Assembly (NCBI RefSeq): GCF_024700885.2
Contig: NZ_CP117016.1
Source of the DNA: Escherichia coli
GTDB taxonomy: Bacteria; Pseudomonadota; Gammaproteobacteria; Enterobacterales; Enterobacteriaceae
Length of the DNA stretch: 64,000 nt
Strand: one strand, 5' to 3'
Shown: positions 1 through 15,067 of the stretch, piece after piece
How positions within the stretch are numbered: the stretch's first letter is position 1
How the letters are laid out: every line of letters begins with the position of its first letter
The notes under the pieces: model-generated
The model's input: only the letters and a program-made list of their open reading frames with translations
The model's database searches: none
What the model was told of the DNA's origin: nothing
Translations under genes and position numbers: made by a program

Positions 1-37
1 ATAATTAACACCGCAAAAAGTGCCAAAAATCGCAAAA

Positions 38-971: not shown

Positions 972-984
972 GCTGCTGACCTCA

Positions 985-2646
985 TTACACCCCGCTAAAT
1001 TCTTCCAGTTTCTGGCGGTGGCTGTCGCTTATATCAAAAGCAAAATCCTCATGCTCTGCCTGGAATGTACCAAACGCCATCAGCGCCGCCACGCTCGGGT
1101 CTATCTTGTTCGGTGATTTTTTCTTGTTCGGCTTGATATTGGCGTTCGCGTCACTCTGCATCACGACGTTACTCATCGACCAGGACAACACCGGATCGCC
1201 ACGATGCACAATCACCCTGCGGTTAACAAAAACTTCGAACGATTTCGCCGCCGGACTGAATCTGAGGTAGGTTTGCGGGAACGGCTCCACCTCAAAACCT
1301 GCCCCCTGTAATTGCGTTCTGAGATGCGTGGCGTTCCACGTATCAAAGCCCACCAGCCTGATATTAAATTTCTCCGCGTCCTGCATGATGTCATCTCTGA
1401 TCCGGTCGTAATCAATGCAGTCGCCAGGCGTTGTGCGTATCCAGCCTGCTTTAGCCCACTGACGATAGATGGCGCGGTTTTTATTGGCGGGGTTCTGTAG
1501 CTGAAATTCCGGCAGATAGTGACGGGAAACCAGCATAATGGTTTTACCGACCGGAAAGGCATAGCACACGCTGGAAATATCGCTGGTTGATGATAAGTCC
1601 AGCCCCGCGTAACACTCCTGGCCGTGTAAATCTTCCTCCGTGAACGTTCCGGCACACTCAGCCCATGCGCCGTTACCCATCCACGGGGTAGCCCCCTGGC
1701 ACCAGATATTAAATCGCTTTGTCATCATCTCCACCCACTGCGACGGAATACCCCGCGCTTTCTGGATGGTTGAGGCCAGTTTTTCACGATCGACGGAAAC
1801 ATCAATATTAGGGTTCGCCTTTATCCACATCGCCGGATCATCAACCTCGTTTTCGTCGTCCAGTTCGTAAATCAGTACAAAAATTGAATCGTTAACCTCT
1901 TCGCCGTCCAGGATCTGGCAGCAATAATCATAGTGCTGCTTACAGGCTGAAACGACGTTGCTGCCTGATGTGGTAATGGCAAATAACAGCCCTTCGGGAC
2001 GTGCGCCCATCCCCAGCTCAAGCGCGGAATAAACGCCGTTATCGGGGTGCAAGTGGTATTCGTCCACGATGGAAAGGCTGGGGTTTGTTCCCTCGATGGT
2101 TGCCGCTTTTGCTGCCAGCGGCTTTAACAGGCTGTTGCTTTTCGGGTGTATCACCTTATGCGCCTGAATATTCACCCGCCTGCGTAACGGTCGGGATAAA
2201 AGGCACATCTGACGCGCATCATCAAAGACGATCCGCGCCTGGTCACGGCTCACCGCTGCGGTGTAGATATCCTGCTGACCGTTCTCCATAATCAGAAACC
2301 AGTTAGCCAGAATCGCGGCGGTCGTGGATTTCGCATTTTTGCGCGGCACTTCGATAAAGGCGCTCGTGTATTTGCGCCGTCCGGTGGCCTTAACCTTAAA
2401 GCCGAGGATGCACGCAAAGGCGAACTGCTGCCACGGCTCCAGCTCAATGGGTCTGCCACGCATCGGTCCTTTTACGTGCGGGCACACCCTGGAAAAGGCA
2501 ATAAACCGCTCCACAACCTCACGATCGAACGTGTAAAGGGGGCTTTTAAGGTCCGAAAAGTACCGTTTAACGGCCTGTTTCAGCCGTTTACAGGCCGGAA
2601 TTTTGCCCGTTTTTACGTCTTCTGCGTACTTATTCCAGGCGGTCAA
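985..2646 (-). CDS. terL: Phage terminase large subunit
   Basis: 553-aa ORF with an N-terminal ATPase region and C-terminal nuclease-like region typical of Terminase_1 family; overlaps terS stop. Confidence 0.9.
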   Translation of the reverse strand: MTAWNKYAEDVKTGKIPACKRLKQAVKRYFSDLKSPLYTFDREVVERFIAFSRVCPHVKGPMRGRPIELEPWQQFAFACILGFKVKATGRRKYTSAFIEVPRKNAKSTTAAILANWFLIMENGQQDIYTAAVSRDQARIVFDDARQMCLLSRPLRRRVNIQAHKVIHPKSNSLLKPLAAKAATIEGTNPSLSIVDEYHLHPDNGVYSALELGMGARPEGLLFAITTSGSNVVSACKQHYDYCCQILDGEEVNDSIFVLIYELDDENEVDDPAMWIKANPNIDVSVDREKLASTIQKARGIPSQWVEMMTKRFNIWCQGATPWMGNGAWAECAGTFTEEDLHGQECYAGLDLSSTSDISSVCYAFPVGKTIMLVSRHYLPEFQLQNPANKNRAIYRQWAKAGWIRTTPGDCIDYDRIRDDIMQDAEKFNIRLVGFDTWNATHLRTQLQGAGFEVEPFPQTYLRFSPAAKSFEVFVNRRVIVHRGDPVLSWSMSNVVMQSDANANIKPNKKKSPNKIDPSVAALMAFGTFQAEHEDFAFDISDSHRQKLEEFSGV

Positions 2647-2986
2647 GCTCGTCCTCTTCTTCTGTTTCCGGTGGGTTTTTACGGCGGCTTATCGGGTCAA
2701 AACCGAGCAAGGAGGCCATTTTTATCATCACCCTTTCAGCGTCTGATTTCGCGCTTAATGCGGGGTTTCTGCTCTCGCCGCCCTGACTGTTAACAATGCT
2801 GAACCCGCGCGCCGCAAGGTCTGCGACGGCTTTCCGGTAAATGGAGTAGTTGACACAATACAGTTCCAGATTGCTCCAGTCGGCGGGGGTCAGGTCTCCC
2901 CGTTCCGCAAGCTGCCGCGATTTTTCCCGCCACTGCTTCACGGCGATGTCATCCAGGTAGGCGGGGGCTTTCGGTGGTCTTGCCAT
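2630..2986 (-). CDS. terS: Phage terminase small subunit (P27-like)
   Basis: 118-aa ORF immediately upstream of and overlapping terL; resembles P27-family small terminases with an acidic C-terminus. Confidence 0.7.
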   Translation of the reverse strand: MARPPKAPAYLDDIAVKQWREKSRQLAERGDLTPADWSNLELYCVNYSIYRKAVADLAARGFSIVNSQGGESRNPALSAKSDAERVMIKMASLLGFDPISRRKNPPETEEEDELDRLE

Positions 2987-3274
2987 GCTTATTTTTCGTC
3001 AGATTATTTTTCAAAAAATTCCCGTGCATAAAAATTTGAGGAGGCGTTCGGTGCCCGGCGGGGTCGGGTTTGTCCTGAAAACGCCCCCCACCCCGTCATA
3101 CAGCCTCATCAGCGATTGCGGAAACATTCCATAACCTCGCGGTCACGGTCGGTTAATCGCTTCGCTGTGATGCGTTCTGCGCGTCCTGACGCTTTATCTT
3201 TATGCCCTGTTTCCTGTGTCTTCCATGCGTCACGCTGCCTTATAAGTCCACGGATAAGGCGGTTTTGTTCCCGC
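2987..3274. other. Candidate cos/packaging site region between HNH gene and terS
   Basis: 288-bp non-coding gap in an HNH-cos-terS-terL arrangement (as in HK97-like cos phages); GC-rich segment cggtgcccggcggggtcggg...ccccccaccccgtc. Confidence 0.3.
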
Positions 3275-3715
3275 TCATTCATCAGCGTCATACATCCAGT
3301 TATTGCGGTTAGCGGCCCGTTCTTCCTCTTCACGAAATCCACCTGCGGCACGCTTGCTTTTTGTTGCCGGATCAAGCCATTTCGTTTTCTGGTTATGACA
3401 CGCCTGGCACAATGGTTGATGGTTCCATTCGGGCCAGAAGAGAACATCATCACCGCCATTAATCGGGATAATGTGATCCACCACCACGGCGGGCGTATAT
3501 ATCCCCTTCTCAAGGCATCGCACGCATAACGGGTTTTTACTCAGATACATGGCGCGGTATTTGTCCCACTGTCTGGAATATCCACGCGCGCGGCGGTGTC
3601 CTCGTCTGGCATCCTCTGCACGCCATGCCGCCCGCCTGTGCTCCTCACACTTGCCGGATTTAACGCGCCTGTTACAGCCTGGTTCTGTGCATCGTCTTAA
3701 TGGTTGCCACGGCAT
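3275..3715 (-). CDS. HNH endonuclease (terminase-associated)
   Basis: 146-aa ORF with Cys pairs and the DHIIP...N..LC..CH..K HNH motif, positioned upstream of terS. Confidence 0.85.
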   Translation of the reverse strand: MPWQPLRRCTEPGCNRRVKSGKCEEHRRAAWRAEDARRGHRRARGYSRQWDKYRAMYLSKNPLCVRCLEKGIYTPAVVVDHIIPINGGDDVLFWPEWNHQPLCQACHNQKTKWLDPATKSKRAAGGFREEEERAANRNNWMYDADE

Positions 3716-4011
3716 CAGTACACCCCCACATCACGGTAAGCCGTCCAGAGTGCGCCTATCGTCATGGGTACGCGTGTTTTTGCGTTATCCGCGACAATCT
3801 GGCGATTTTCATACAGGTGAGCGATAAACATCATGCAGCCAATCTTTATGGCTGGCGTGAACTCCAGCCCGTCATCAAAGCGCCTGCCTATGTGTATCTG
3901 GCACGCCTCAAGCGATGCGGCAATGTATCCGCTGATTAACTGGTCTTCATCGTCGCCATCGATGCGGCAATGGAGTTTCACTTCTTCCAGGGTGATAAGT
4001 TCTTCTGTCAT
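3715..4011 (-). CDS. Head-tail connector protein (gp6-like)
   Basis: 98-aa ORF, MTEELITLEEVK... resembles phage gp6-like head-tail connector family; translationally coupled to neighbours. Confidence 0.65.
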   Translation of the reverse strand: MTEELITLEEVKLHCRIDGDDEDQLISGYIAASLEACQIHIGRRFDDGLEFTPAIKIGCMMFIAHLYENRQIVADNAKTRVPMTIGALWTAYRDVGVY

Positions 4012-4346
4012 TTTTCCGCGCCCTCACGACAAAGAATTTCAAGGCGTGTCCTGGCGGCATCCGGCAGCGGCTGCCCGATGATATTCAGTACACGCCCCGC
4101 CAGCGGCCCCGTACTGACCTTTATCCGGCTGGTGGCGTTGATGTCCTTCCGGTACCGTATCCAGATCCTTACGGTACCAATCGCCAGCTCTGCGCCCGAT
4201 GAAATGGCCTCCTTGCTGCTGACCATGTTCACGCTTGCCCAGAGTGTGTGACCGTCCTCCCACGTTTCGAGTATTTCGCCGGTTATATCCCTGGTCTGTT
4301 TCAGGGTCTGAATCGTTATCCTGTCACGCAGTCGCCCTATGTTCAT
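4008..4346 (-). CDS. Head-tail adaptor / head closure protein
   Basis: ORF 4008..4388; probable start MNIGRLRDRITIQ at 4346, directly after portal stop, typical N-terminus of head-tail joining proteins. Confidence 0.65.
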   Translation of the reverse strand: MNIGRLRDRITIQTLKQTRDITGEILETWEDGHTLWASVNMVSSKEAISSGAELAIGTVRIWIRYRKDINATSRIKVSTGPLAGRVLNIIGQPLPDAARTRLEILCREGAEK

Positions 4347-5554
4347 TCCGGTTTTTCTCCCTCGCTGATTTTTACTTCCTGTTTCCATGCCTGGCTGAAC
4401 TCATCACCACCATCACGCGGTGACAGACCTTCACGTTCGCGGGCTTCGTTCGGACACATAACGCCGGATTTGATGCCGCGCTCATAGGTGGCAAAGCGTT
4501 CGCCAGGTGTGGCCCGTAACAGGTCCGCGCTGTCAAACTCCACCTGATACCGGATACCAGGTACAGGCGAGGCCACCAGCAGGGCGTTTTTTATCTGCTG
4601 CTCAAAGTTCGCCAGCCACGGGCGCATCGTCATGGTGAGAAATGCGCGGCTTGCCTCGCTGAAATTGCTGTAGGTGCTGTTGCTGTATTCCTGCAAAAAA
4701 ATCGGCGAGACGTTGAACATTCGGGCGATGTCTTCAATGGTGAAGCGACGGGAGGCCAGCCATTCAGCATCCTGATTACTCATGCCCAGCTGCTGATAGC
4801 TCATACCCCCTTCAAGGATGGGCGTTTTTCCGGCGTTTCTGGCCCCTTTGTAGCGTTCCAGTGCGGCTAATGCCTGTTTGCCCTTCACGCCGTCCAGCCA
4901 TTCGCCTGACGTGATAACCCCTGCCGCCATCATGCCATCACGCATCACGCTCGCGCCGTGGCGTTGTTGGGCCAGCCCAAGCCCCAGCGATTCGCGGCAG
5001 ATGGTTACAGGTGAGCACCCCATAAAGCCGTCATCCGTGGAGTAACGAAGGTGAAGTACTTCCCACGGTAAATAGTTGCGGGTGTTTCCGGTGTAGGCGT
5101 CAGTGATGCAGTAGCGCCAGTTGTGTTCGCCTGTCTGCTCCACGTTCACCGACTGCGGCGGGTAAGGATGTAAAGCCGCCGGAAAACCATCACGCCCCCA
5201 CTGAATCACCGCATAAGCATTACCGTTTAACAGGCAGTGGCGGATCATCATTCGCTTAAACTGGTAGGGGGTTTGCCATGCGTTCGGGCGCTCGTTGAGG
5301 ATGTGATCGACCGGATGAGAATCAAGCCACTCGCGGGCCTCCTTCCCCTTCTCATTGCGTACCAGGTACAGGTAACACGGCATGGTAGCCACCGCCTCAG
5401 AGATGACCGTCACGGCGTTCATGACGGCGGGCAGTGATTCCGCTGTCCCCGATGATACGTACTCACCCGCCCCCGTGTTCGATGTGCCAGCCAGCGCCAT
5501 AAATTCATCCAGCGTCATGCTGCGCTGCTCTTTTTTTCTTCTGAAAGGCCACAT
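4343..5554 (-). CDS. Portal protein (HK97 family)
   Basis: 403-aa ORF sitting between the prohead protease and adaptor genes, resembling HK97-family portal proteins. Confidence 0.85.
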   Translation of the reverse strand: MWPFRRKKEQRSMTLDEFMALAGTSNTGAGEYVSSGTAESLPAVMNAVTVISEAVATMPCYLYLVRNEKGKEAREWLDSHPVDHILNERPNAWQTPYQFKRMMIRHCLLNGNAYAVIQWGRDGFPAALHPYPPQSVNVEQTGEHNWRYCITDAYTGNTRNYLPWEVLHLRYSTDDGFMGCSPVTICRESLGLGLAQQRHGASVMRDGMMAAGVITSGEWLDGVKGKQALAALERYKGARNAGKTPILEGGMSYQQLGMSNQDAEWLASRRFTIEDIARMFNVSPIFLQEYSNSTYSNFSEASRAFLTMTMRPWLANFEQQIKNALLVASPVPGIRYQVEFDSADLLRATPGERFATYERGIKSGVMCPNEAREREGLSPRDGGDEFSQAWKQEVKISEGEKPE

Positions 5555-5555
5555 A

Positions 5556-6128
5556 TCACACCCCCGCTAAATCCACCCACCAGCGGCGATTATCCGCACG
5601 CGGCATTTTTTCGGGGTGCTGCTCATACAGGGAACGGCGGGCCAGCTCCACGCCGGAATCGGGGTAAGCCGGTACCGATGTAACGGTAATTTCGTACAGT
5701 TCCGCCACCAGCACGGTGCGCACGCATGGATCTGTTGTGGTATCCCATACATCCTTACGGGAGCGAAAGCCAAAGCTCATCCCCGAGATGTCCCCACGCT
5801 TAACCAGTTCGATAACGTCGCGCCCTGTACTGGTATCCGGTGGGGTCAGTTCAAAGCGTAACCCTGTTTCGTCCTCTTCCAGTTTCAGCGTGCCGGAACG
5901 GGTGCGCCCCAGTAACATGCTGTGGTCATGCTCATACAGGCCGCGAACGTCATTACCCGCCGCAAGCCACTCAGTAAACGCCCCCCGCTGGAATTTTTCG
6001 TAAAACTCCCCCCATAGCAGTTCTGAAAGCTTATCCCAGCGAACAACGTAGCCCGTCAGCGTACCGGCTCCGCTGGTAGTGATTTCCGATGACCGGATTT
6101 CCATACTCTTCATAATTTTTTCACCCAT
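5556..6128 (-). CDS. Prohead maturation protease (HK97 family)
   Basis: 190-aa ORF immediately downstream of the capsid gene, resembling HK97 prohead protease. Confidence 0.85.
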   Translation of the reverse strand: MGEKIMKSMEIRSSEITTSGAGTLTGYVVRWDKLSELLWGEFYEKFQRGAFTEWLAAGNDVRGLYEHDHSMLLGRTRSGTLKLEEDETGLRFELTPPDTSTGRDVIELVKRGDISGMSFGFRSRKDVWDTTTDPCVRTVLVAELYEITVTSVPAYPDSGVELARRSLYEQHPEKMPRADNRRWWVDLAGV

Positions 6129-6167
6129 AAAACACTAAAGGGGCTTTTAAGCCCCTTCTGTATGCTG

Positions 6168-7325
6168 TTAATCGTCGTCCTGTGGCAGTTCCAGAATCTT
6201 GATCGCGTTCGAATCCACCACGCCACCGCCTAAATATTTCTGCGTGAAAATTTTGATGAAGCCCGGCTCTGTGAGGTTGTCCGGTCTGGTGCGAACACCT
6301 GTTTCGTGATCAACAATGTAGTAACCGCGTTTGAAGTCACCCAGGGCAATAACGTTATCCGGCATAAACTCCAGATATTCGACCGGAAGGCCCAGTAACG
6401 TATCAGGATCACCCGCCTGTAAACGGTCGCGCCAGATGTAATCACCGTTCGCGTTCTTCACCTTCTGAAGTTTTGCCGCCGTCGTGGAGTTAACCACCCA
6501 GACCGCGTTTTTGCGGTATTTTTTACGTAATGCAAATTTCAGGTCGATCAGCGGGTCCGCAGATGTCCACGCCAGAGATTCGGAAGGTTTAATTACCTGC
6601 AACGTACCAAAATCACGCTCTTTGTCGTTCTTCTCTGCACGGGGTACGGATAAAAAGCCTTTTGCTTTTTTGTCACCGTCGCCCACAACCAGATCGCTTT
6701 CTTCGGTTTCCGTGAAGTTGTCGCCAATCTCGCCCGTCAGCCATGAAAGGATGTCCACATCGGAAAAATCCACGATTTCCTGCGTGGTGCGCGGGTACGC
6801 ATAGACCGGATACAGCTTAATGCTCACCTCGTTAATCTGCGGGGTGCTGGTCTGTTCGCGTGCCTTACCCTCTTCACCGTGGTTAACGGTCGCACCGCCA
6901 GCGGAAACAAGCTGCTTAAACTCGTTGCTGCTGATTTTCTTCACGGTACAGATGCGGCGCATGGTGGATTCATCCGTCAGCATTCGCATGATTTCGGTGT
7001 TCAGTTCGGGGATAACGGTATAACCACCATCAGCGGGAACGCCTGTACTTAATGCGCGGGTTTCACCTGTCAGAATGTAGTGACGTAGTTCGGCTGGGTC
7101 AGTGGTCTGACTGCTTTTACCTGGCTTGCTGCGCTCTTCGTCTGCAATGGCTTCAAGGCGGGAAATGTCTTTATCGAGGGATTCAGCTTTAGCGCGTAAT
7201 TCGTCAAATTTTGCGCCCTCAGCATCGTTAAGACTGCGGTTTTCTTTTTCCGCGTTCTCCAGCATGTCGCGCATCTGATTTTTAATGGCGGTTTTCTGCT
7301 GGCGTAATTCGATTATTCTCGGCAT
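6168..7325 (-). CDS. Major capsid protein (HK97 fold) with N-terminal delta/scaffold domain
   Basis: 385-aa ORF with a coiled-coil-rich N-terminus followed by HK97-like capsid region. Confidence 0.85.
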   Translation of the reverse strand: MPRIIELRQQKTAIKNQMRDMLENAEKENRSLNDAEGAKFDELRAKAESLDKDISRLEAIADEERSKPGKSSQTTDPAELRHYILTGETRALSTGVPADGGYTVIPELNTEIMRMLTDESTMRRICTVKKISSNEFKQLVSAGGATVNHGEEGKAREQTSTPQINEVSIKLYPVYAYPRTTQEIVDFSDVDILSWLTGEIGDNFTETEESDLVVGDGDKKAKGFLSVPRAEKNDKERDFGTLQVIKPSESLAWTSADPLIDLKFALRKKYRKNAVWVVNSTTAAKLQKVKNANGDYIWRDRLQAGDPDTLLGLPVEYLEFMPDNVIALGDFKRGYYIVDHETGVRTRPDNLTEPGFIKIFTQKYLGGGVVDSNAIKILELPQDDD

Positions 7326-7584
7326 AAAAAAAGTCCTGGGGTTAAGTAAGGAACTCCAGGACGCGGCAAAAACTCAACCGTTTTTCATAAGGAAATCAGC
7401 AATCGCACCGATCGTTTTCCCGCCTGGTAATGAATATTGGCGAGAACATTAACAGGCGGAAAAGTGGCCCCAGCGTCCTGGCACCACGGGCGAGAATAAT
7501 CATGATTCAGTTCGGGTAAAATATGCCGATCCGCTCAGTGAACAACGTGGAACAACCACGAACAAATAATTTACAAAACATGAC
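7326..7584 (-). promoter_or_regulatory. Upstream region of capsid/packaging operon containing 10-bp phased AACAA repeats (7541..7565)
   Basis: 259-bp non-coding gap between an upstream terminator and the capsid start; gtgaacaacgtggaacaaccacgaacaa. Confidence 0.45.
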
Positions 7585-7605
7585 AAAAAGCCGGATTGCT
7601 CCGGC
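7585..7605 (-). terminator. Rho-independent terminator ending the replication/early operon
   Basis: Minus-strand hairpin gccggagcaatccggc followed by TTTTT, immediately after the stop of the 93-aa ORF. Confidence 0.6.
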
Positions 7606-7612
7606 TGTGTGA

Positions 7613-7894
7613 TTATCTGTCCTGGTAATTTCGCCATATTTCATTACCAGCACCATCCATACCCATTTCGGCATAAGTGCGATCGACCGCCTTTTTCAGG
7701 TCTCCGTAGTTATCCGGCGGCTCCGGTGGCCTCTGTGCCTTCCTGGAACATTCCAGCCGTCGCATCGTGATGTGATGCCGTTCCTTGTCTGTCTCCACCA
7801 GTTGCATGACTTCACCCCATCGCGCCGACGCTCTCCGGTAAAAGCCTTTCGCCTCCAGTTCTTCCGCTATGCGGTCATGTACCATCGTCCCCAC
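7613..7894 (-). CDS. Hypothetical protein
   Basis: 93-aa ORF in operon with the SSB gene. Confidence 0.5.
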   Translation of the reverse strand: MGTMVHDRIAEELEAKGFYRRASARWGEVMQLVETDKERHHITMRRLECSRKAQRPPEPPDNYGDLKKAVDRTYAEMGMDGAGNEIWRNYQDR

Positions 7895-7897
7895 CCC

Positions 7898-8308
7898 TCA
7901 GAACGGAATATCATCACCGTAAGGGTCATCGCCTCCCGCTGGTGGCTGATTACCCTGTGTGCCTGTGGTCTTGCGTCGGCTCCCACCAGGACGTGCCGCA
8001 CGGGCACTGATTACGCTGTCTGCAATAACCTGATAACCCTGCCGCGTTTCCCCGTTCTGTCCGGTCCACTGGCTGACCTGCATCGTGCCGGATACGCTGG
8101 CAACGTCGCCTTTTTGATGTTTAGCCAGGAAGTCGGCCTGCTTACCAAATGCGATGACCGATAGCCATAACGTCGCCTGTCCATCCTGTGCCTGGCTGCA
8201 TGGCAGCGATACCGCCATACGCGCCAGCGTCATCGGTGTACCCTTGCTGGTCTGTTTTACCTGCGGGTCGTCCACCAGCCGCCCGTAAGCTGCTATCTGT
8301 GCTGTCAT
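7898..8308 (-). CDS. ssb: Single-stranded DNA-binding protein (SSB-like)
   Basis: 136-aa ORF with OB-fold-like core, Gly/Pro-rich linker and C-terminal DDIPF tail as in bacterial SSB. Confidence 0.75.
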   Translation of the reverse strand: MTAQIAAYGRLVDDPQVKQTSKGTPMTLARMAVSLPCSQAQDGQATLWLSVIAFGKQADFLAKHQKGDVASVSGTMQVSQWTGQNGETRQGYQVIADSVISARAARPGGSRRKTTGTQGNQPPAGGDDPYGDDIPF

Positions 8309-8583
8309 GATTCCACCTCTCCGGTTTTAACGTTGATGGTTGTTACCTGTTCCGCTTCGGCAATCTCCCGCTCTGTCAGCGTGGCAAAATTTGCCGCCGT
8401 CGTGGTCATGAATGCGCTTATCAGTTTGGGATGTGCTTTCGCGTATCCTTCCCCCGCGTGGCGGTCTATCGTTCTGATTGCCACCTTTAAAGCGTGCTCT
8501 GTCATGTCTAACGCGCGATATTTCGGTTCTGTTCTGTCTCTGCGTTTTTTGAGTGATTTATTAAATTTCCCTGAAGTGTGCAT
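8305..8583 (-). CDS. Hypothetical protein
   Basis: 92-aa ORF between the iteron origin and the SSB gene, overlapping the SSB start. Confidence 0.5.
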   Translation of the reverse strand: MHTSGKFNKSLKKRRDRTEPKYRALDMTEHALKVAIRTIDRHAGEGYAKAHPKLISAFMTTTAANFATLTEREIAEAEQVTTINVKTGEVES

Positions 8584-8629
8584 ATTTATTTTTACCCCCT
8601 CGTTTAAAAAGTTTTGAGTTGTGCCTCCC

Positions 8630-8860
8630 CTTGTCTACCTTATCTACCTTAGTGGCCCTCATACCAGTAATGGCGCGGCTTTCAGCGGGGTAGAGTGCTT
8701 TTATCCACTATCTACCCCGTGTCTACCTCCCTGTCTGATTCAGGTAAAATCAGGTAGAGAGGGTAGATAGTGGGTAGACAGTAAAAAAAGGTTATCTACC
8801 TAACTTAATGCACTGAATTAAATGTATTTTTCTTTACTCAGGTAGACAGGGTAGACAGCA
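8630..8860. repeat. Iteron array, putative island replication origin
   Basis: Ten or more copies of T(A/G)TCTACC in both orientations (e.g. tgtctacct, tatctacct, caggtagagagggtagatagtgggtagacag, caggtagacagggtagacag) immediately 3' of the primase gene. Confidence 0.7.
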
Positions 8861-8871
8861 ATTACAAAAAA

Positions 8872-10626
8872 TTATAAAAACGCGTCGCACTCGTCTGTTG
8901 TTATTGCGTTAGTCTGCGTTACTCCCTTAACTTTCCGCGTAATATATTCATGTCCGTAAACTTTCGCGGCTGGCTTCATAGCCTTGCCAAAGTCATTTAC
9001 GTTTAGCGGTTTGCTCCTGCCTGCGTACGCCATAAACGCCAGATAGACGCGGTAAAGGCTGTTTCTGGTCGTGTACTTCACTGAATCGCCACCGCCGCCC
9101 ATCATCAGGCCGCGTGCTTCCTCCAGAAAATTCAGGAACTGGCAAAACTCAATAACCGGATCCGTCTGTTGCTTTATTGCCAGAGCTTCATCACCGTCAC
9201 GCTGTTCCAGTAGTAAAGCCCGTGCCTTCTCAGGGTCGGTAAAGTTCGCCAGCAATCGGCGGATAATGACAGGGATTTCAGCCGCGATCTTTTCCGGTAG
9301 CTCCCTGTCTTTTTCGGCCTCACTGACGATATTGTCGAAACGGAAAATCACGCGACGACGTGCCACACCTCCGGCCCGTTCGGTGAATATCATCGGGTTA
9401 TTGTTGGTCGCCAGCACCACCGCCCTGATTACCGCCGTGAAACGCTTTTCGTATTTCGGGTTAATTTCCACGGGGTCACCGCCCGTGATTTTCTTGATGC
9501 CCGTTCCTTCGCCTGTATATTTCGGCTGGTCAGCCAGGACGATAAGACGACTCCCGACAACCTGCGCACGTCCACCAGCATCATCAAGCGATGTCATTTC
9601 AGCGCTTACCGTGTTCTGTTTCCCTGCCAGAAGGCTGGCTATGTGTGTGAATGTACTTTTACCGCTCCCGCCGTCTCCGGTGGCCTCAATAAACATCTGC
9701 CAGTCGTACCGGTTCGCCATAATCATGTACAGCGCGGCACATATACGCATCATCTTGCGCGGGTCTTTTCCGGCTGCGTGCTCAAGCCATTTATGAAAGT
9801 TTGGCGCGTTATCGCGGATGTTCTCCCCTGGTGCTGGTGGCGTGTACTCAATGCCGTTGTGCGTGGTGATCCAGTTCTCCGGCGTGTGCGGGGAAAATTC
9901 CCCCGTTTTCAGGTCAAGCGCACCATTGGCGAACGGCAACAAATCGCCGGACGGCTCGCCCATTGGTTCGGCAATAACTTTTAACGCTTCCACGGCGTTA
10001 TTGATTACGCGCTTGCTGAAAGTGGCCCTGTGCTCTGAATAGATCGCCACCATTTCGCGGCTAAGTTCCATTGTGCTGACCGGACACCATACCCCGCCGC
10101 GCCATACGTGAACGATTTCACTTTCAGGATGTACGCAAACGCCATCAAAGCGATCGGCAAGCAGTTGCGCGCGCTCACTGTCCGCCATCTGCGAAAGTTG
10201 CGCCTTTTGCTTTACCGGAAGCTCAATGACCAGACCATCAGAAAGATTCTGGCGCTCACGGGCCAGATATTCGCGCCAGTTCTCCACCTTCTGACCGTGC
10301 ATACCATCAGGGTAAAAATTTGCATCCTGTACGCCTGCCGCCGCCAGCTTCTGACCAATCGCCTTTATCATTACTGGCGCAAGATATCCGGCCCTGAATA
10401 TGCGCACGGATTTTCTGCCTTCCGGCACAATTTGCAGCTTATCCAGTTCGGATAACTGCTGCTCCCCAAGCCACACAGGAGGCTCATTATCTCCGGCCAT
10501 ACGCGCGTCATGTTCCTGCCATTGTTTTGCGTGTGACCAGGCATCACTACCCGCAAAAATAATGACTTCTGTTTCTTTGTGTTTTATGCCGCGTGACTGC
10601 TGTTTTACGTTCGGTGCCAGTTTCAT
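8872..10626 (-). CDS. Replication initiator: phage/plasmid primase with D5/P4-type NTPase (helicase) domain
   Basis: 584-aa ORF with Walker A GDGGSGKST and downstream motifs typical of P4-family primase C-terminal domain; followed by iterons. Confidence 0.8.
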   Translation of the reverse strand: MKLAPNVKQQSRGIKHKETEVIIFAGSDAWSHAKQWQEHDARMAGDNEPPVWLGEQQLSELDKLQIVPEGRKSVRIFRAGYLAPVMIKAIGQKLAAAGVQDANFYPDGMHGQKVENWREYLARERQNLSDGLVIELPVKQKAQLSQMADSERAQLLADRFDGVCVHPESEIVHVWRGGVWCPVSTMELSREMVAIYSEHRATFSKRVINNAVEALKVIAEPMGEPSGDLLPFANGALDLKTGEFSPHTPENWITTHNGIEYTPPAPGENIRDNAPNFHKWLEHAAGKDPRKMMRICAALYMIMANRYDWQMFIEATGDGGSGKSTFTHIASLLAGKQNTVSAEMTSLDDAGGRAQVVGSRLIVLADQPKYTGEGTGIKKITGGDPVEINPKYEKRFTAVIRAVVLATNNNPMIFTERAGGVARRRVIFRFDNIVSEAEKDRELPEKIAAEIPVIIRRLLANFTDPEKARALLLEQRDGDEALAIKQQTDPVIEFCQFLNFLEEARGLMMGGGGDSVKYTTRNSLYRVYLAFMAYAGRSKPLNVNDFGKAMKPAAKVYGHEYITRKVKGVTQTNAITTDECDAFL

Positions 10627-10922
10627 TTTTTACCCCTGAATCCGTTAATCATGGTTTTCAGCTTCTGGATGTTTGCCCGTGCCCTGGCGTTGCTGGTGGA
10701 CACGTTATGCGGCGCGGTCTGTACCAGAGAAAAATCACGCCGGAACTGATAAACAGGCATCACGCAATCATATTCGTAACCTTCACGGCGGTAGGTTACG
10801 CGCCGTTCTTCCACGCCCTTAATCATTACCGTGCCGCCGTACTGGTCGCGGTAAATATCGCCGCGCGTAAATTTAGGGTGAGTGTTGCCACTGGCAGTTA
10901 AGCCAGAATATTTAAGTTTCAT
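10623..10922 (-). CDS. Hypothetical small protein (accessory operon gene 7)
   Basis: 99-aa ORF whose stop overlaps the primase start (ATGA). Confidence 0.5.
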   Translation of the reverse strand: MKLKYSGLTASGNTHPKFTRGDIYRDQYGGTVMIKGVEERRVTYRREGYEYDCVMPVYQFRRDFSLVQTAPHNVSTSNARARANIQKLKTMINGFRGKK

Positions 10923-10927
10923 TATTT

Positions 10928-11161
10928 TTATTCTCCGGTGTGCTGTTCTTTATATCTGTCGTGCAATAGATCTATTTCTTGCAGTTCCATTATTACAGGC
11001 TCAAGAAGCGTTATTAATGCCGTGGCAATTCTTGATTTTTGTTTGTCGCGTTCATTGTCGCCAAGTGTTTCAAGCCATATGCGCAATATTTCCAGCATGT
11101 TTTCACTGTGAGAAAGTGCAAGAAATGCGCGGTCTATTGTTTCGTGGTAAATATCACGCAT
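10928..11161 (-). CDS. Hypothetical small protein (accessory operon gene 6)
   Basis: 77-aa ORF, same strand, tightly packed. Confidence 0.45.
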   Translation of the reverse strand: MRDIYHETIDRAFLALSHSENMLEILRIWLETLGDNERDKQKSRIATALITLLEPVIMELQEIDLLHDRYKEQHTGE

Positions 11162-11387
11162 GGCTTACATCCTCAGGAAATTTTCTTCTATAACGCGCCT
11201 CTGCCACATATTCCGCATAATCGGCGGCGATATTCAGTACATCAAGCCCCGTTGATTTATATTCTCTCGTGGAAAGTAAGAAAAAAGCCGCTCTAATAAG
11301 TTCTGGCATTGACGAAAGCGCATCAGCCGCATCATCAGGAACGCCGGAAAATTCCTGTTTCAGGGAATTAAAACGATCATCACGCAT
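11154..11387 (-). CDS. Hypothetical small protein (accessory operon gene 5)
   Basis: 77-aa acidic ORF overlapping its neighbours by 8 bp. Confidence 0.45.
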   Translation of the reverse strand: MRDDRFNSLKQEFSGVPDDAADALSSMPELIRAAFFLLSTREYKSTGLDVLNIAADYAEYVAEARYRRKFPEDVSHA

Positions 11388-11763
11388 GTTTACCCCCCTG
11401 AATGACCTGATAACCGCAACTGGTCAGCAACTCGATAAATTCCGGCAGTGTGCCGAAACAGCAATCATCACGCAGCCGTTCACAGGATACCTCGACGCCG
11501 TTTTCGTAGTGACTCACCATACATCCGGTAAAATGCAGATCATCATCGTGATGGCTCGTTGACGGCTTAATCAGTCGCGCACGTTCCGCCAGTTCCAGCA
11601 ATGCTTCAACGCTTCCGGCAATTGCACCATCCGGCAGGTGATAATTACGCACTATGCGCCCGTTCTCCACATTGACCAGCAACTGCCCGGTAAATTTCTC
11701 ATCAAACTGAATGCTGTTAAGGTCAGAAATTGACAGATTATGCATGGTGCACCTCCTGCACAT
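11380..11763 (-). CDS. Hypothetical protein (accessory operon gene 4)
   Basis: 127-aa ORF; start may be the internal Met at 11745 (MHNLSI...). Confidence 0.5.
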   Translation of the reverse strand: MCRRCTMHNLSISDLNSIQFDEKFTGQLLVNVENGRIVRNYHLPDGAIAGSVEALLELAERARLIKPSTSHHDDDLHFTGCMVSHYENGVEVSCERLRDDCCFGTLPEFIELLTSCGYQVIQGGKHA

Positions 11764-12016
11764 CAGCCATGATAATTTTTCCGGCCTTATCCAGTGCCTG
11801 ATCGGCTTTTAGCTGCACAAATGCTAAATAATGGAAGATGCATTCTGATTCTCTGGCTGCGTGTTTATGCGCCCTGTCAGCAATAACAGAAATATCAATA
11901 AGCGCGTGCATCAGCGTAGTGAGCGCGGCGGCGGCTGCGTCCGGTGTGGTTTTATTGCACATGTACCCCTCCGCATTTTTTTTCGTTAGAAATAAGCGTT
12001 CTTCTTTCCTGTTCAT
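11738..12016 (-). CDS. Hypothetical small protein (accessory operon gene 3)
   Basis: 92-aa ORF; start may be the internal Met at 11962, which would remove most of the overlap with the upstream gene. Confidence 0.45.
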   Translation of the reverse strand: MNRKEERLFLTKKNAEGYMCNKTTPDAAAAALTTLMHALIDISVIADRAHKHAARESECIFHYLAFVQLKADQALDKAGKIIMADVQEVHHA

Positions 12017-12182
12017 CGCTCAGGAATACGCAGACCTCACCGCTAAGGCGTTTAAGTAAGCCGATGATTGCCCCTGATTCGCTGTCGGTCATCATGCCAG
12101 GGTAATCCTCTGCCAGTGCGCAAATAACTTCGATTTGGTGGGCGCGTTCTGCTGCCTGTTGTAGTGTGATTTCCTGGCTCAT
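11952..12182 (-). CDS. Hypothetical small protein (accessory operon gene 2)
   Basis: 76-aa ORF, start overlaps the stop of the upstream gene. Confidence 0.45.
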   Translation of the reverse strand: MSQEITLQQAAERAHQIEVICALAEDYPGMMTDSESGAIIGLLKRLSGEVCVFLSDEQERRTLISNEKKCGGVHVQ

Positions 12183-12379
12183 AAGCCTACCCCCTGACGA
12201 ATACGGGCAGCAAATACCATCACGCAGCCAGCCGGAGATTGCTGGCGTGCTTCCTGTTCGCTGGTGGCCTCAATGGTAATCACGCGCGGTTGTGCCGTGC
12301 TCAGGGCGATAAAACGCCAGATGTATTTATTCAGGTTGTGCGAGTCCCGCCCTTGCGGGTGTGTGGTATGATTTCTCAT
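12179..12379 (-). CDS. Hypothetical small protein, first gene of leftward operon (Cro-like position)
   Basis: 66-aa ORF starting MRNHTT at 12379; the 340-aa ORF in the track is read-through across the regulatory region. Confidence 0.4.
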   Translation of the reverse strand: MRNHTTHPQGRDSHNLNKYIWRFIALSTAQPRVITIEATSEQEARQQSPAGCVMVFAARIRQGVGL

Positions 12380-12476
12380 AGCTACCTCGATACTTTCGCT
12401 ATCGTTGGTGGTTAGAAGCCCGGTTAGTGTTAGCGCACTGCCGGGTTTCGTCGTTTCTGCACCTTGCGCCAACAAG

Positions 12477-12528
12477 GTGTTGAACACCAATTTAAACCCA
12501 GGTGTTAAACACGTCAAGTGTTGAACAC
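12477..12528. promoter_or_regulatory. Three palindromic operators GTGTTnAACAC between divergent promoters
   Basis: gtgttgaacac (12477..12487), gtgttaaacac (12502..12512), gtgttgaacac (12518..12528) in the gap between divergent gene sets. Confidence 0.6.
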
Positions 12529-12578
12529 TTATTTTTTTTCCTGCATACTGCATTTGTTTTTTATGAGGGGTACACCAC

Positions 12579-12758
12579 ATGGCGACAAAAGCGGTAAACG
12601 CAAAATCACAAACCGTTGCGGCAAGGGTTCCGCATGAAGTTATGAACAATGTTGAGGCGGTAAAAATGCCTGGCGAAAGTACGGGGCAATTTGTTACTGC
12701 GGCATTAAAACGAGAAGTTGAATATCGCCAGCGGCGCAAGGCCAAAGAACCAGAGTAA
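12579..12758 (+). CDS. Putative ribbon-helix-helix transcriptional regulator
   Basis: 59-aa ORF (below the track cutoff) with a Shine-Dalgarno-like gagggg upstream; beta-strand/helix/helix pattern typical of Arc/MetJ/CopG family; adjacent to operators. Confidence 0.5.
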   Translation: MATKAVNAKSQTVAARVPHEVMNNVEAVKMPGESTGQFVTAALKREVEYRQRRKAKEPE

Positions 12759-12800
12759 TCACCATCAGCGCCGTGGTGTAAGGTATTACGGCGCATTGCT

Positions 12801-12989
12801 ATGCAGGACAACACAATGACCGATAAAGAATTGACCAAAACATTATCACCGGCACGGAAAAGACGGCGCAGAAAGATAGAGCATGAATCAGAAAGATTCG
12901 CGCCATGTGCTTTTGCCCTTGAGCAATTCCTTAAAGAGTACAGGGAAAAGCGCTCATTGCAGGTATGGCAACGAACTGAACCAGACTGA
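12801..12989 (+). CDS. Hypothetical small basic protein
   Basis: 62-aa ORF downstream of the RHH gene on the same strand, followed by a terminator. Confidence 0.4.
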   Translation: MQDNTMTDKELTKTLSPARKRRRRKIEHESERFAPCAFALEQFLKEYREKRSLQVWQRTEPD

Positions 12990-13083
12990 TTGCATTGCCC
13001 ACCAGCCTGATAACGGCTATCATCCCCGTGCTTATGTTTGGGATCACACACACAAACGGCGCAGCGGGTTATCTGTTCAGAAA

Positions 13084-13113
13084 GGCGGCTCCATTTCGGG
13101 GCCGCTTTTTTTA
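13084..13113 (+). terminator. Rho-independent terminator of rightward regulatory transcript
   Basis: Hairpin gcggctcc-attt-cggggccgc followed by TTTTTTT. Confidence 0.55.
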
Positions 13114-13258
13114 TACCTGAAAAACCCCAATTTTGTTGTTTTTCAGTTTCACCAGGGCGAACGAATCCCCGCCCACGTTCTGGCGTATATTCAATCTTCA
13201 TGGTTATAGCTCTGTGTTCAGATGATTGATGTGTGGCGGCTGCGTGCCGCCAGCGTGA

Positions 13259-13528
13259 TTAATGAACTGCCTTGCAGCTATCCTTCCAGGCCAGAACCTC
13301 GGATAAAGACCAGCCAACGGAACGACCGCCAAGTTTACGACGTGATGGGAATTGTCCGGCCTTTTCCAGGCGGTAGCGACACGTACGGCTAAGGCCGGTT
13401 AGTTTTTCGCATTCTTTTTCACGTATAAACCGATCAGTGCTTAACACTATTGCCCCCCTTTCGTTTCTTAAAGAGTCATCAGGTGTCTTATTGTGTCGTA
13501 TTGTTCCCGCTAGAGTGATGAATGGCAA
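13259..13528 (-). CDS. alpA: AlpA-family phage transcriptional regulator / excisionase-like
   Basis: 89-aa ORF; C-terminal region ...LTGLSRTCRYRLEKAGQFPSRRKLGGRSVGWSLSEVLAW matches AlpA-family pattern; adjacent to int; true start may be downstream. Confidence 0.8.
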   Translation of the reverse strand: MPFITLAGTIRHNKTPDDSLRNERGAIVLSTDRFIREKECEKLTGLSRTCRYRLEKAGQFPSRRKLGGRSVGWSLSEVLAWKDSCKAVH

Positions 13529-13720
13529 ATACTGAGGATGTATGATTTACAGAAAATGAAACAGTAAGAATAAAATTTTTTAAATTCATGTTAATACAAA
13601 GGCATAAAATATTGTTCCATGCCTTTTTTCTCGCTCTTTAAAGAGTGATTCGCTAGTGTACAAAAAACCAGTAACGCATTAAAAATCAGCTACTTATAAA
13701 TCCGTACGCTTTTTCGCCTC

Positions 13721-13765
13721 TTGTTCGTAGTTGTTCCACATTGTTGCTCATTGTTGCACGTTGTA
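13721..13765. promoter_or_regulatory. Five 10-bp phased TTGTT repeats (reverse-complement of AACAA array) between int and alpA
   Basis: ttgttcgtag ttgttccaca ttgttgctca ttgttgcacg ttgta at exact 10-bp spacing. Confidence 0.5.
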
Positions 13766-13812
13766 TCTGTTCGCATATCCAGTATGCGCATACTGAAAAA
13801 ACACGAAAAAAA

Positions 13813-15042
13813 TTATTTTCTTCTGGCTACGGGTAGCGTGGTTACGTTTTCATGTGTTCCCGCCAGTATCCCTAACCGCTCCGTCCACATATCCAGCGCA
13901 TTGCGTTTCGCATCCAGATAACGGGAATGATTATAAACTCGCTGCATTCCTGGCATCTGGTGGCCTGTAAGCTGCTCCACGACATGCGGATCAACGCCTA
14001 AATCGTTCAGCATGGTTGTAAAGGTGCGCCGGATGTCATGCAGTGACCAGTGAGGGTGATTAAGCCTCCTGTACGCTAATCTTCCATACTGCGATACGCT
14101 GGCCTCCTGTTTCACTTCCCCCAGCAATAAGCCCGTGTGCCTGTTCTGCTCCACCAGCTGCGTGACGAACGGCAGGATCGCTTCCGGTATGGGCCGGAAT
14201 ATTGCGACCTTCGTTTTGCTGTGCTCCTTCGGAACGGTCCATAGCATTTCCGTAAAATCCCACTCCCCGATCTCCGATAACCTCAGTTCTACCGTTCTGG
14301 CTCCGAAGACAATCAGGAGGCGGATTAACGCGACGTAGTAAGGGGAGAATATTTTTTTGTCCAGTGCCTGCAATAATTCGCCAAGTTCTTTGTTACTTAA
14401 GACACGTTCGCTTATATCCGGTTTTTTCCCAACGTCCGCAACGTTCAGATCGTCCAGAACGTTGCTGATTGCATAGCGCCGCCTACGGCAGAACTTAAGC
14501 GCCTGTTTGCACGCCTGTAGCACGAATCCGGCAGTAACAGGCGTTCGCTTTGCCACCTGGTCAAAACAGGCCAGCCAGTGCCGTAGCTCGCATTTATCCA
14601 GCGGCATAGCACCAATCTGCTGTATTACGTGATTATTAAGTCGCCTTTTCAGGGCGATATAATCCACGCGGTTTTCCTTTACGTAATACTCAAGCCAGTA
14701 GGTGAGCGCATCGCCAACCGTTACGGGCTTTAACGCTTCCTGTACGGTGTAATTCATCTCATGACGTGGATTTTTCCCCTCAGCCAGCCATGTGCGACAC
14801 TGTGCGGCTTTTTCCCTGGCTGCTTTCAGGCTCAGATCAGGATAACTTCCCAGCTTAATGCGTTCGGGTCGTGTCTCCCTTCCCGTTCCGGCCCTGTATG
14901 TGAAATACCAGGTCAATTTCCCTGATGTTAAATATTTCACGCTCAGGTTTCCGCCATCACTATAAAACGTGTTTTTCTCCGCTGGCTTACCATGAAGTTT
15001 CCTTAGCAAGGTATCGCTCAGTTTGTTCATTGCTCTGCTCAC
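13813..15042 (-). CDS. int: Tyrosine-type site-specific integrase (P4-like)
   Basis: 409-aa ORF with catalytic-domain motifs (HDIRRTF, GHQ, VYNHSRY) at the island end next to the chromosomal junction. Confidence 0.92.
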   Translation of the reverse strand: MSRAMNKLSDTLLRKLHGKPAEKNTFYSDGGNLSVKYLTSGKLTWYFTYRAGTGRETRPERIKLGSYPDLSLKAAREKAAQCRTWLAEGKNPRHEMNYTVQEALKPVTVGDALTYWLEYYVKENRVDYIALKRRLNNHVIQQIGAMPLDKCELRHWLACFDQVAKRTPVTAGFVLQACKQALKFCRRRRYAISNVLDDLNVADVGKKPDISERVLSNKELGELLQALDKKIFSPYYVALIRLLIVFGARTVELRLSEIGEWDFTEMLWTVPKEHSKTKVAIFRPIPEAILPFVTQLVEQNRHTGLLLGEVKQEASVSQYGRLAYRRLNHPHWSLHDIRRTFTTMLNDLGVDPHVVEQLTGHQMPGMQRVYNHSRYLDAKRNALDMWTERLGILAGTHENVTTLPVARRK

Positions 15043-15067
15043 GTTTTACCCCCTCTTTACGAAAAAG

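What the first reader, a model, noticed from the sequence alone, without database searches (positions are those of the whole stretch)
7585..7605. Terminator splits the island leftward transcription into early and late units
A clean hairpin with a T-run follows the 93-aa ORF, and a 259-bp gap with the phased AACAA array precedes the capsid gene. Head and packaging genes are therefore probably transcribed from their own regulated promoter, not by read-through.
Basis: seen in the sequence. Interest (0 to 1): 0.3.

Follow-up and report, generated by a model that had tools for sequence, protein, structure and literature searches.

The report
Terminator and AlpA-type late promoter
In a capsid-making phage satellite of E. 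coli, a transcription terminator closes the early genes. Right after it sits a separate, weak promoter for the capsid genes, preceded by three evenly spaced repeats that probably bind AlpA, the satellite's own master switch.

Summary
On the minus strand, a 7-bp GC-rich hairpin with a GCAA loop (7606..7589) and a U-rich tail begins 6 nt after the stop of the 93-aa ORF. That ORF is a PerC-family regulator. The window holds a capsid-forming PICI (cf-PICI) inserted in tqsA.

About 40 related islands carry a hairpin plus T-run at this position. Three unrelated hairpin sequences fill the slot. The one checked island with an oppositely oriented upstream gene has none.

Downstream lies a conserved control region:
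- a constant box, TTTTGTAAATTA
- three TTGTTC repeats at an exact 10-bp period
- a weak sigma-70 promoter (TTTACC-16-TATTCT)
- a ~160-nt structured leader whose last hairpin holds the ribosome-binding site

The same phased repeats occur in both att arms and upstream of alpA. A separate 11-bp tandem next to int tracks integrase divergence. A second island lineage swaps the hexamer at the late promoter and has look-alike pairs in its att arms.

The best reading is that the repeats are the operator of AlpA, acting as both excision factor and activator. This would explain why AlpA alone triggers capsid production. It is inferred, not shown. The terminator itself is ordinary. The operator logic is a modest new addition.

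The parts
7613..7894 (-). perC-like gene (93 aa), the last gene of the early/replication unit
   Evidence: PF06069 PerC, E = 4.6e-43, full-length match. RefSeq annotates it as 'PerC family transcriptional regulator'.
7589..7606 (-). Intrinsic-terminator hairpin AGCCGGA-GCAA-TCCGGCT
   Evidence: The position is conserved in about 40 loci, and unrelated hairpins fill it in L060 and L017.
7574..7588 (-). U-rich tail of the terminator (TTTTGTCATGTTTTG)
7567..7578 (-). Constant box TTTTGTAAATTA. Function unknown.
   Evidence: Essentially unchanged in the E. coli, Citrobacter and Erwinia island lineages whatever repeat follows it; Gilliamella has a variant, CTTTGTAATTAA.
7540..7565 (-). Three TTGTTC repeats at an exact 10-bp period. 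Proposed AlpA operator, centred near -56, -66 and -76 from the predicted start.
7515..7520 (-). Predicted -35 element, TTTACC
   Evidence: Cross-lineage alignment. L017 has TTTACA and L005/L006 have TTTTCT at the same spacing. Read by eye.
7493..7498 (-). Predicted -10 element, TATTCT, after a 16-nt spacer. Predicted start near 7487..7485.
   Evidence: TATnnT is conserved in all lineages. The pair is below the scan threshold.
7464..7487 (-). Leader hairpin 1 (GTGGT.CCAG-GACG-CTGG.GCCAC) at the predicted 5' end of the transcript
   Evidence: On the alignment 95.8% of cells are paired, 4 pairs change on both sides, and slid controls give 29-57%.
7415..7463 (-). Leader hairpin 2 (UUUUCCGCCUG...CAGGCGGGAAAA)
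   Evidence: Predicted in the minimum-energy fold. Other lineages have different stems at the same place.
7326..7362 (-). Hairpin GTCCTGG...CCAGGAC containing the ribosome-binding site AGGA (7337..7334), followed by T7, directly before the capsid ATG
   Evidence: The stem is kept in L060 with a different loop, and leader type 2 has an analogous GGTTTC/GAAACC hairpin.
6168..7325 (-). Major capsid gene (HK97 type), the first gene of the late/packaging operon
   Evidence: PF05065, E = 1.5e-61
6137..6158 (-). Terminator-like hairpin after the capsid gene, inside the late operon
   Evidence: 9 pairs, 5 G-C
15097..15132 (-). int-proximal att arm: TTGTTC/TTGTTT/TTGTAG/TTGTGC at a 10-bp period
15067..15089 (-). 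GGTGTAGTCAC x2, probable integrase arm-type sites (int-proximal arm)
   Evidence: This tandem changes with the integrase type across islands.
77..92 (-). Far att arm: TTGTTC/TTGTTT pair
37..59 (-). GGTGTAGTCAC/T x2, probable integrase arm-type sites (far arm)
13721..13766 (+). Four to five TTGTTC-type repeats at a 10-bp period between int and alpA, inverted relative to alpA
   Evidence: Other islands have 4-7 copies with the phase kept.
13482..13506 (-). Second array (GAACAA/ACACAA/ACAC, 10-bp period) just upstream of the alpA ribosome-binding site
13259..13447 (-). alpA (62 aa from a GTG start)
   Evidence: PF05930, E = 1.5e-16. The RefSeq model is 62 aa. Related to PDB 8C3T, 'AlpA family'.
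13813..15042 (-). Tyrosine integrase gene
15218..15226 (.). att core ATAACAGCA at the tqsA junction

Best explanation
The hairpin at 7606..7589 is a Rho-independent terminator. It ends the early/replication transcription unit of a capsid-forming PICI, which runs from alpA to the perC-like gene.

Immediately downstream begins a separate control region for the capsid and packaging operon:
- a constant box, TTTTGTAAATTA
- three TTGTTC repeats exactly one helical turn apart
- a weak sigma-70 promoter (TTTACC, 16 nt, TATTCT), with a start near 7486
- a structured leader of about 160 nt whose last hairpin holds the ribosome-binding site

The repeats are most likely the operator of the island's AlpA protein, a small winged-helix protein of the excisionase type. 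The proposal is that AlpA binds head-to-tail to the same kind of array in both att arms (to direct excision), upstream of its own gene (autoactivation, which is published) and upstream of the late promoter (activation from about -56 to -76).

The terminator would keep the capsid genes from being driven by basal early transcription. AlpA accumulation would then switch them on.

Shown here: the sequence anatomy, its conservation and the covariation. Inferred: that termination occurs, where transcription starts, and that AlpA is the protein that binds.
For: Terminator.
- Structure and energy.
- It is one of only three strong hairpins in 20 kb, and each of the three sits directly after a co-oriented stop codon.
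- The position is conserved in about 40 loci, with three unrelated hairpin sequences. The hairpin is absent in L006/L061, where the upstream genes are on the other strand.

Own promoter.
- The -35, 16-nt spacer and TATnnT are conserved between diverged lineages.
- The control region is kept in the Erwinia island (L006/L061), whose upstream genes are on the other strand.
- The module boundary lies exactly here.

Array.
- 8 hits against 0.4 expected. Six are in the island, forming four arrays: both att arms, the int-alpA spacer and upstream of the capsid gene.
- The 11-bp tandem next to int changes with the integrase: GGTGTAGTCAC, GGTGTAGTTAA, TGTGTGGTCAG, TGTGTATTGCA. TTGTTC arrays stay the same across AlpA at 66-100% identity.
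- Those AlpA types share the helix motif RTxRY and the wing LGGRSVGW.
- The Erwinia and Citrobacter lineage has (G/T)TACCC repeats at the late promoter. Erwinia also has 10-bp-phased look-alike pairs in both its att arms and an HTH_17-type regulator instead of AlpA.

Literature.
- Excision factors bind direct repeats one helical turn apart and can double as transcription regulators (PMC7498355).
- AlpA is proposed as an excisionase in PICMIs (PMC10803314).
- cf-PICI capsids are made without a helper phage, and alpA overexpression is used to produce them (bioRxiv 10.1101/2025.02.11.637232).
Against: - No transcript or binding data exist for this region.
- The promoter scores 8 of 12 and was not reported by the scan.
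- The proximal U-tract is short (4-5 U), so termination may be partial.
- The O55:H7 island has an identical AlpA but no array before its lambda-type late module.
- L017 has TTGTTC x3 before its capsid gene, but its AlpA paralogues are only 48% and 58% identical, and it has no phased TTGTTC array in its att arms.
- The array between int and alpA is inverted and lies about 130-170 bp upstream of the best alpA promoter candidate.
- The hexamer covariation rests on only two lineages. The Erwinia att-arm repeats are degenerate pairs.
- L057 lacks a recognisable hairpin.
Confidence: 0.6

Rival explanations
1. The hairpin is real, but the late genes are expressed mainly by read-through from the alpA promoter. 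RNA polymerase would be made termination-resistant, either by AlpA acting like the P. aeruginosa AlpA or lambda Q antiterminators, or by the helper phage's Q protein in helper-embedded islands.
For: - Another terminator-like hairpin lies inside the late operon after the capsid gene, and a hairpin plus T7 lies just before the capsid ATG. Polymerase must pass such signals anyway.
- L017 has terminators after each alpA paralogue and sits co-oriented inside a helper phage late operon (PMC10111431).
- There is a precedent of the same name (PMC7969949).
Against: - The island's AlpA is a bare 62-aa winged helix.
- The P. aeruginosa protein has at least 142 residues and eight helices. Its N-terminal segment forms a ring in the RNA exit channel, and its binding element lies between -35 and -10 (PMC9371919).
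- No sequence match to those PDB chains even at E <= 1.
- The Erwinia island (L006/L061), with oppositely oriented upstream genes, keeps the control region.
- Promoter elements downstream of the terminator are conserved.
Confidence: 0.15
2. The PerC-family protein encoded just upstream is the late activator. AlpA turns on the early unit, PerC is made last, and PerC then activates the late promoter through the repeats.
For: - perC sits directly upstream of the control region in most E. coli islands.
- The family is described as transcriptional activators.
- A PICI PerC homologue alters LEE1 expression (PMC11773190).
Against: - The repeats also sit in both att arms and upstream of alpA, which fits an excision factor and not PerC.
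- L017 and the Erwinia island have the control region but no perC.
- PerC identity ranges from 48% to 100% with no change in the array.
- PerC has no informative match to a solved structure (best E about 0.007, to an unrelated F-BAR protein).
Confidence: 0.1
3. The hairpin is mainly a cassette-boundary or mRNA 3'-end stabilising element that marks a recombination hotspot. The TTGTTC repeats would be bound by integrase or a host architectural protein and would have no role in late transcription.
For: - The same hairpin flanks both sides of the 75-aa insert in O157 and O55 islands.
- Module exchange occurs right after it.
- The HE-PICI paper left open which protein binds the att-arm motifs.
Against: - Unrelated hairpins occupy the same position, which argues for function rather than a shared scar.
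- The integrase-linked tandem is a different repeat that tracks integrase divergence.
- The array keeps a fixed distance of 16-19 nt to the -35 in all lineages.
Confidence: 0.1

Closest known systems
cf-PICI EcCIEDL933 (capsid-forming phage-inducible chromosomal island of E. coli O157:H7)
   Same: Same gene set and order: int, alpA, primase, SSB, perC, capsid, protease, portal, connectors, HNH, TerS, TerL. No tail or lysis genes. About 15 kb. The late control region is nearly identical in an O157:H7 island of this type.
   Different: The window's island lacks the 75-aa gene that O157 islands carry between perC and the control region. It sits in tqsA.
Dual-purpose excision factors: phage 186 Apl, P2 Cox, P4 Vis
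   Same: Small DNA-binding proteins that bind direct repeats 10-11 bp apart, both at att and at promoters. According to the title of a paper cited in the Apl study, P2 Cox activates prophage P4 (PMC7498355). The array layout here matches this.
   Different: Apl and Cox mainly repress at the lysis-lysogeny switch. Here the array lies upstream of a weak -35 in an activator-like position, before a structural-gene operon. Binding by AlpA is not demonstrated.
Lambda PR'-tR'/Q and P. aeruginosa AlpA antitermination
   Same: A terminator lies between a regulatory region and late or lysis genes. One of the factors shares the name AlpA.
   Different: In those systems the binding element lies between -35 and -10, and the factor enters the RNA exit channel. 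Here the repeats are upstream of the -35. The protein is 62 aa and has no sequence match to those chains.
SaPI packaging operon (operon I) with its own promoter
   Same: A satellite whose packaging genes form a separately controlled late unit (from my own knowledge, not checked here).
   Different: SaPI operon I is, as I recall, LexA-repressed and switched on by helper late activators. cf-PICI capsids are made without a helper phage.

Membership tests
Rho-independent (intrinsic) terminator | GC-rich stem of at least 5 bp with a short loop | tested here: met
   7 bp, 5 G-C pairs, GCAA tetraloop
Rho-independent (intrinsic) terminator | U-tract immediately 3' of the stem | tested here: met
   TTTTGTCATGTTTTG. 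Only 4-5 proximal U. Sister copies in O157/O55 islands have T7.
Rho-independent (intrinsic) terminator | Located just downstream of a co-oriented gene | tested here: met
   Starts 6 nt after the perC stop codon. The position is conserved across loci.
Rho-independent (intrinsic) terminator | Produces transcript 3' ends in vivo or in vitro | not testable with these tools
   Needs Term-seq or in vitro transcription
Operator of a recombination directionality factor (Xis/Cox/Apl type) | Direct repeats spaced one helical turn apart | tested here: met
   Exact 10-bp period at four island sites. The rule is stated in PMC7498355.
Operator of a recombination directionality factor (Xis/Cox/Apl type) | Sites present in att arms beside integrase arm-type sites | tested here: met
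   Both arms carry [array]-N20-[GGTGTAGTCAC x2]. The tandem changes with the integrase.
Operator of a recombination directionality factor (Xis/Cox/Apl type) | Repeat sequence co-varies with the cognate protein | tested here: inconclusive
   TTGTTC goes with AlpA at 66-100% identity. TTACCC-type repeats go with an HTH_17 regulator in Erwinia. Only two lineages, and L016 and L017 do not fit simply.
Operator of a recombination directionality factor (Xis/Cox/Apl type) | Cooperative binding and bending by the protein | not testable with these tools
   Needs gel shifts or footprinting with purified AlpA
Sigma-70 promoter | -35 and -10 hexamers with a 16-18 nt spacer | tested here: inconclusive
   TTTACC-16-TATTCT is 8 of 12, below the scan threshold. 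The position and TATnnT are conserved across lineages.
cf-PICI | int and alpA, primase, a full HK97-type capsid and packaging module, no tail or lysis genes, about 10-15 kb, own att site | tested here: met
   Criteria from bioRxiv 10.1101/2022.09.08.507074.
Q-like / P. aeruginosa AlpA processive antitermination | A factor with an RNA-exit-channel segment, and a binding element between -35 and -10 | tested here: not met
   62-aa protein, no match to those PDB chains. The repeats lie upstream of the -35. Features taken from PMC9371919.

The most novel reading that the evidence does not exclude
One small protein, AlpA, uses a single type of helically phased operator placed at four sites: both att arms, its own promoter and the late promoter. 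This would couple excision, self-amplification and capsid synthesis, and would explain why cf-PICIs make DNA-filled tail-less capsids without any helper phage.

On top of that, the conserved 160-nt leader may act as a second, post-transcriptional gate on capsid production. Its 5' hairpin shows compensatory changes between lineages, and its last hairpin hides the ribosome-binding site. One island encodes a ProQ/FinO protein just upstream of this leader.
Probability: 0.3. Interest if true: 0.55.

Novelty: new member of a known kind. Interest (0 to 1): 0.35.

Why it matters
cf-PICIs spread between species by releasing tail-less capsids that capture tails from unrelated phages. It is published that AlpA triggers the cycle and that no helper phage is needed for capsid production. 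I found no promoter, terminator or AlpA operator described for these islands in the cf-PICI and PICI papers I read.

The anatomy given here turns 'AlpA induces the island' into a testable circuit. It supplies defined sites for mutation, a predicted transcription start, and a terminator whose removal should uncouple early from late expression. It also gives a practical rule for telling integrase arm sites from AlpA-type sites in PICI att regions.

As biology it extends a known theme, excision factors that also regulate transcription. It does not reveal a new one.

Tried and rejected
- Rfam search of 1..20000 at E <= 1: nothing in the gap.
- blastn of the gap against 50,697 phage records: no match.
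- Antisense 55-aa ORF 7285..7452 as a real gene: rejected. T7/T8 length variation shifts its frame in L057, and L060 has stops.
- Integrase as the binder of TTGTTC: rejected, because a different tandem tracks integrase divergence.
- P. aeruginosa-type AlpA antitermination: a defining feature is not met.
- Sigma-54 promoter in the TGGCAC/TGGTGC motif of leader hairpin 1: rejected by eye, because the GG-to-GC spacing is off by one and there is no TTGC.
- A promoter using the constant box as its -10: no usable -35, by eye.
- L058 as a circular complete island for an extra attP test: it is an integrated island followed by a second, tandem element.
- The genome-contig scan returned only three close loci.
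- PDB entry 8C3T could not be linked to a paper.
- The Gilliamella island (L007/L062) gave no clear phased array before its capsid gene.

Full report
**Context.** The finding lies in a ~15-kb island on the minus strand, inserted in tqsA next to pntAB. The att core is ATAACAGCA. Gene order is int (13813..15042), alpA (13259..13447), a DUF4222 gene, primase, a 92-aa ORF, SSB, a PerC-family gene (7613..7894), the gap, HK97-type capsid (6168..7325), prohead protease, portal, connectors, HNH, TerS and TerL. There are no tail or lysis genes. This is a capsid-forming PICI of the EcCIEDL933 type. Of 5,426 complete E. coli genomes, 836 match the perC-to-capsid segment.

**The observation.** On the minus strand it reads AGCCGGA-GCAA-TCCGGCT (7606..7589), then TTTTGTCATGTTTTG, and it starts 6 nt after the perC stop codon. 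It folds at -13.2 kcal/mol with z = -3.7. Generic terminator-like hits are at chance level in this region. However, only three hairpins in 20 kb have at least 7 pairs and at least 5 G-C pairs, and each follows a co-oriented stop codon within 10 nt: pntB, the capsid gene and perC. The proximal U-tract is short, so I rate the terminator as moderate. The phased repeats are also real: three TTGTTC at an exact 10-bp period (7565..7540). The two-repeat pattern occurs 8 times in the window against 0.4 expected.

**Is it a functional terminator?** I collected 54 related loci from viral contigs and a few from genomes. Every E. coli-type locus with a co-oriented upstream gene has a hairpin plus T-run ending 9-13 nt before a constant box, TTTTGTAAATTA. 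The one exception is L057. The upstream gene may be perC, a 75-aa insert or another gene. Most loci share the same hairpin, with a GCAA or GAAA loop. L060 and L017 have unrelated hairpins at the same place (AGCCCTGGT-TTA-ACCAGGGCT and AAAGGCCTGGA-TTTTC-TCCAGGTCTTT). The Erwinia island (L006/L061), whose upstream genes are on the other strand, has no hairpin. L005 and L058 also have none, but I did not check the orientation of their upstream genes. In O157 and O55 islands the hairpin occurs twice, on either side of the 75-aa insert. Conservation of position with replacement of sequence argues for function.

**Is there a separate late promoter?** Aligning the upstream regions of diverged lineages gives one shared layout:
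- the constant box
- three hexamer repeats at a 10-bp period
- 16-19 nt
- a -35 (TTTACC, TTTACA or TTTTCT)
- a 16-nt spacer
- a -10 of the form TATnnT (TATTCT at 7498..7493)
- a hairpin starting about 6-8 nt later

The promoter is weak, at 8 of 12 matches, and was not reported by the scan. That is expected for an activator-dependent promoter. The Erwinia island keeps this whole region although its upstream genes point the other way, so read-through cannot supply its late operon. In O55:H7 islands the same perC and terminator are followed by a different late module with a different control region. The module boundary is therefore exactly at the terminator.

**What binds the repeats?** The same 10-bp-phased TTGTTC repeats occur at four places in the island:
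- the int-proximal att arm (15132..15097, four repeats)
- the far att arm (92..77)
- the int-alpA spacer (13721..13766, inverted, 4-5 repeats), with a weaker set just before alpA (13506..13482)
- upstream of the capsid gene

In each att arm the array is followed about 20 nt later by a different tandem, GGTGTAGTCAC x2, which occurs as a tandem pair only at the two ends. Across islands this tandem changes with the integrase. It is GGTGTAGTTAA at 88-91% integrase identity, TGTGTGGTCAG at 67% and TGTGTATTGCA at 41%. These are the integrase arm-type sites. They correspond to the 'doubled motif' that the helper-embedded PICI paper left unassigned.

The TTGTTC arrays stay constant across AlpA proteins of 66-100% identity. 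Those proteins share the helix motif RTxRY and an identical wing, LGGRSVGW. Copy number in the int-alpA array varies from 4 to 7, but the phase is kept.

In the Erwinia and Citrobacter lineage the late-promoter repeats are (G/T)TACCC instead. In Erwinia both att arms carry 10-bp-phased ATACTT/TTACCC-like pairs next to their own integrase tandem. The regulator there is an HTH_17 excisionase-type protein, not a PF05930 AlpA.

Excision factors characteristically bind head-to-tail to direct repeats one helical turn apart, and several also regulate promoters (PMC7498355). AlpA is published to activate its own promoter, to be necessary and sufficient for PICI induction and to act as an excisionase in PICMIs. 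cf-PICI capsids are made without a helper phage, and alpA overexpression is used to produce them. AlpA is thus the best candidate. This is inference, and no binding data exist.

**Evidence that does not fit neatly.** The O55 island has an identical AlpA and arrays at att and alpA, but none before its lambda-type late module. L017, a helper-embedded island, has TTGTTC x3 before its capsid gene, but its AlpA paralogues are only 48% and 58% identical and its att arms have no phased array. The hexamer covariation rests on two lineages.

**Rivals.**
- Antitermination by AlpA. The P. aeruginosa antiterminator AlpA has at least 142 residues, with an N-terminal ring in the RNA exit channel and a binding element between -35 and -10. 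The island's AlpA is 62 aa and matches only PDB 8C3T, not those complexes.
- PerC as the late activator. This is unlikely, because the repeats also sit at att, and islands lacking perC keep the control region.
- A pure cassette-boundary role for the hairpin. This does not explain why unrelated hairpins occupy the same slot.

**The rest of the gap.**
- The predicted leader (about 7487 to 7326) folds at -62.6 kcal/mol with z = -4.3.
- Hairpin 1 (7487..7464) has an invariant GACG loop. Four pairs change on both sides between leader types, three of them in every sequence of one type. On the alignment 95.8% of cells are paired, against 29-57% when the partner is slid. These changes come from a single split between two lineages.
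- Hairpin 2 has different stems in each lineage at the same position.
- The last hairpin (7362..7333) contains the ribosome-binding site and is followed by T7 and the ATG. Its role is open: attenuator, translational gate or U-rich enhancer.
- The gap has no Rfam match and no phage match. Its antisense ORF is not conserved.

**Verdict.** The terminator itself is an ordinary feature. The added value is the anatomy of the late control region and the likely AlpA operator shared by the att sites, the alpA promoter and the late promoter. I did not find this described in the cf-PICI and PICI papers I searched and read. It extends the known class of dual-purpose excision factors rather than defining a new kind.

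Noticed in passing
window 8638-8790: Direct and inverted iterons (CTACCC(A/T)CTATCTACCC and GGTAAAATCAGGTAGA) between the primase gene and the next ORF. This is probably the island's replication origin.
   Followed up: no
window 6137-6158 (- strand): A strong terminator-like hairpin (9 pairs) directly after the capsid gene, inside the late operon. It may set the ratio of capsid to downstream products.
   Followed up: no
window 7567-7578 (- strand): The constant box TTTTGTAAATTA is essentially unchanged in the E. coli, Citrobacter and Erwinia island lineages, whichever hexamer repeat follows it. No binding factor could be assigned.
   Followed up: partly
window 12380-12452 (+ strand): A weak Rfam match to the SymR antitoxin RNA (33 bits, gathering score 61) in the Icd-like zone. 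The 340-aa ORF 12179..13201 there is probably spurious, because RefSeq annotates Icd-like pseudogenes and a YlcI/YnfO gene instead.
   Followed up: no
L001 1840-2215; L002 3345-3725: O157:H7 and O55:H7 islands carry a 75-aa gene with no Pfam match between perC and the late control region. The same terminator hairpin bounds it on both sides, like an inserted cassette.
   Followed up: partly
L016 (O55:H7 CB9615) 3165-14165: An island with an AlpA identical to the window's, and TTGTTC arrays at both att arms and upstream of alpA. Its late module is lambda-type (capsid plus decoration protein), and its control region lacks the array.
   Followed up: partly
L017 11206-11987 and 18363-18520: A helper-embedded island inside a prophage terL gene encodes a ProQ/FinO-family protein just upstream of the structured late leader. 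Near its far end it has TTGCGGGTTA x3 direct plus x3 inverted repeats.
   Followed up: no
L006 3312-3335: In the Erwinia island, a 22-of-24-nt copy of the capsid-upstream repeat array (TATCCGTACCCATG.TTT.CCC) lies inside the integrase coding sequence.
   Followed up: no
L058 8900-9200: Two satellites in tandem at one tRNA site. The first island's att arm (GGTATCC x2) is followed by a second integrase gene with its own tandem (TTACCTGACCCG x2).
   Followed up: no
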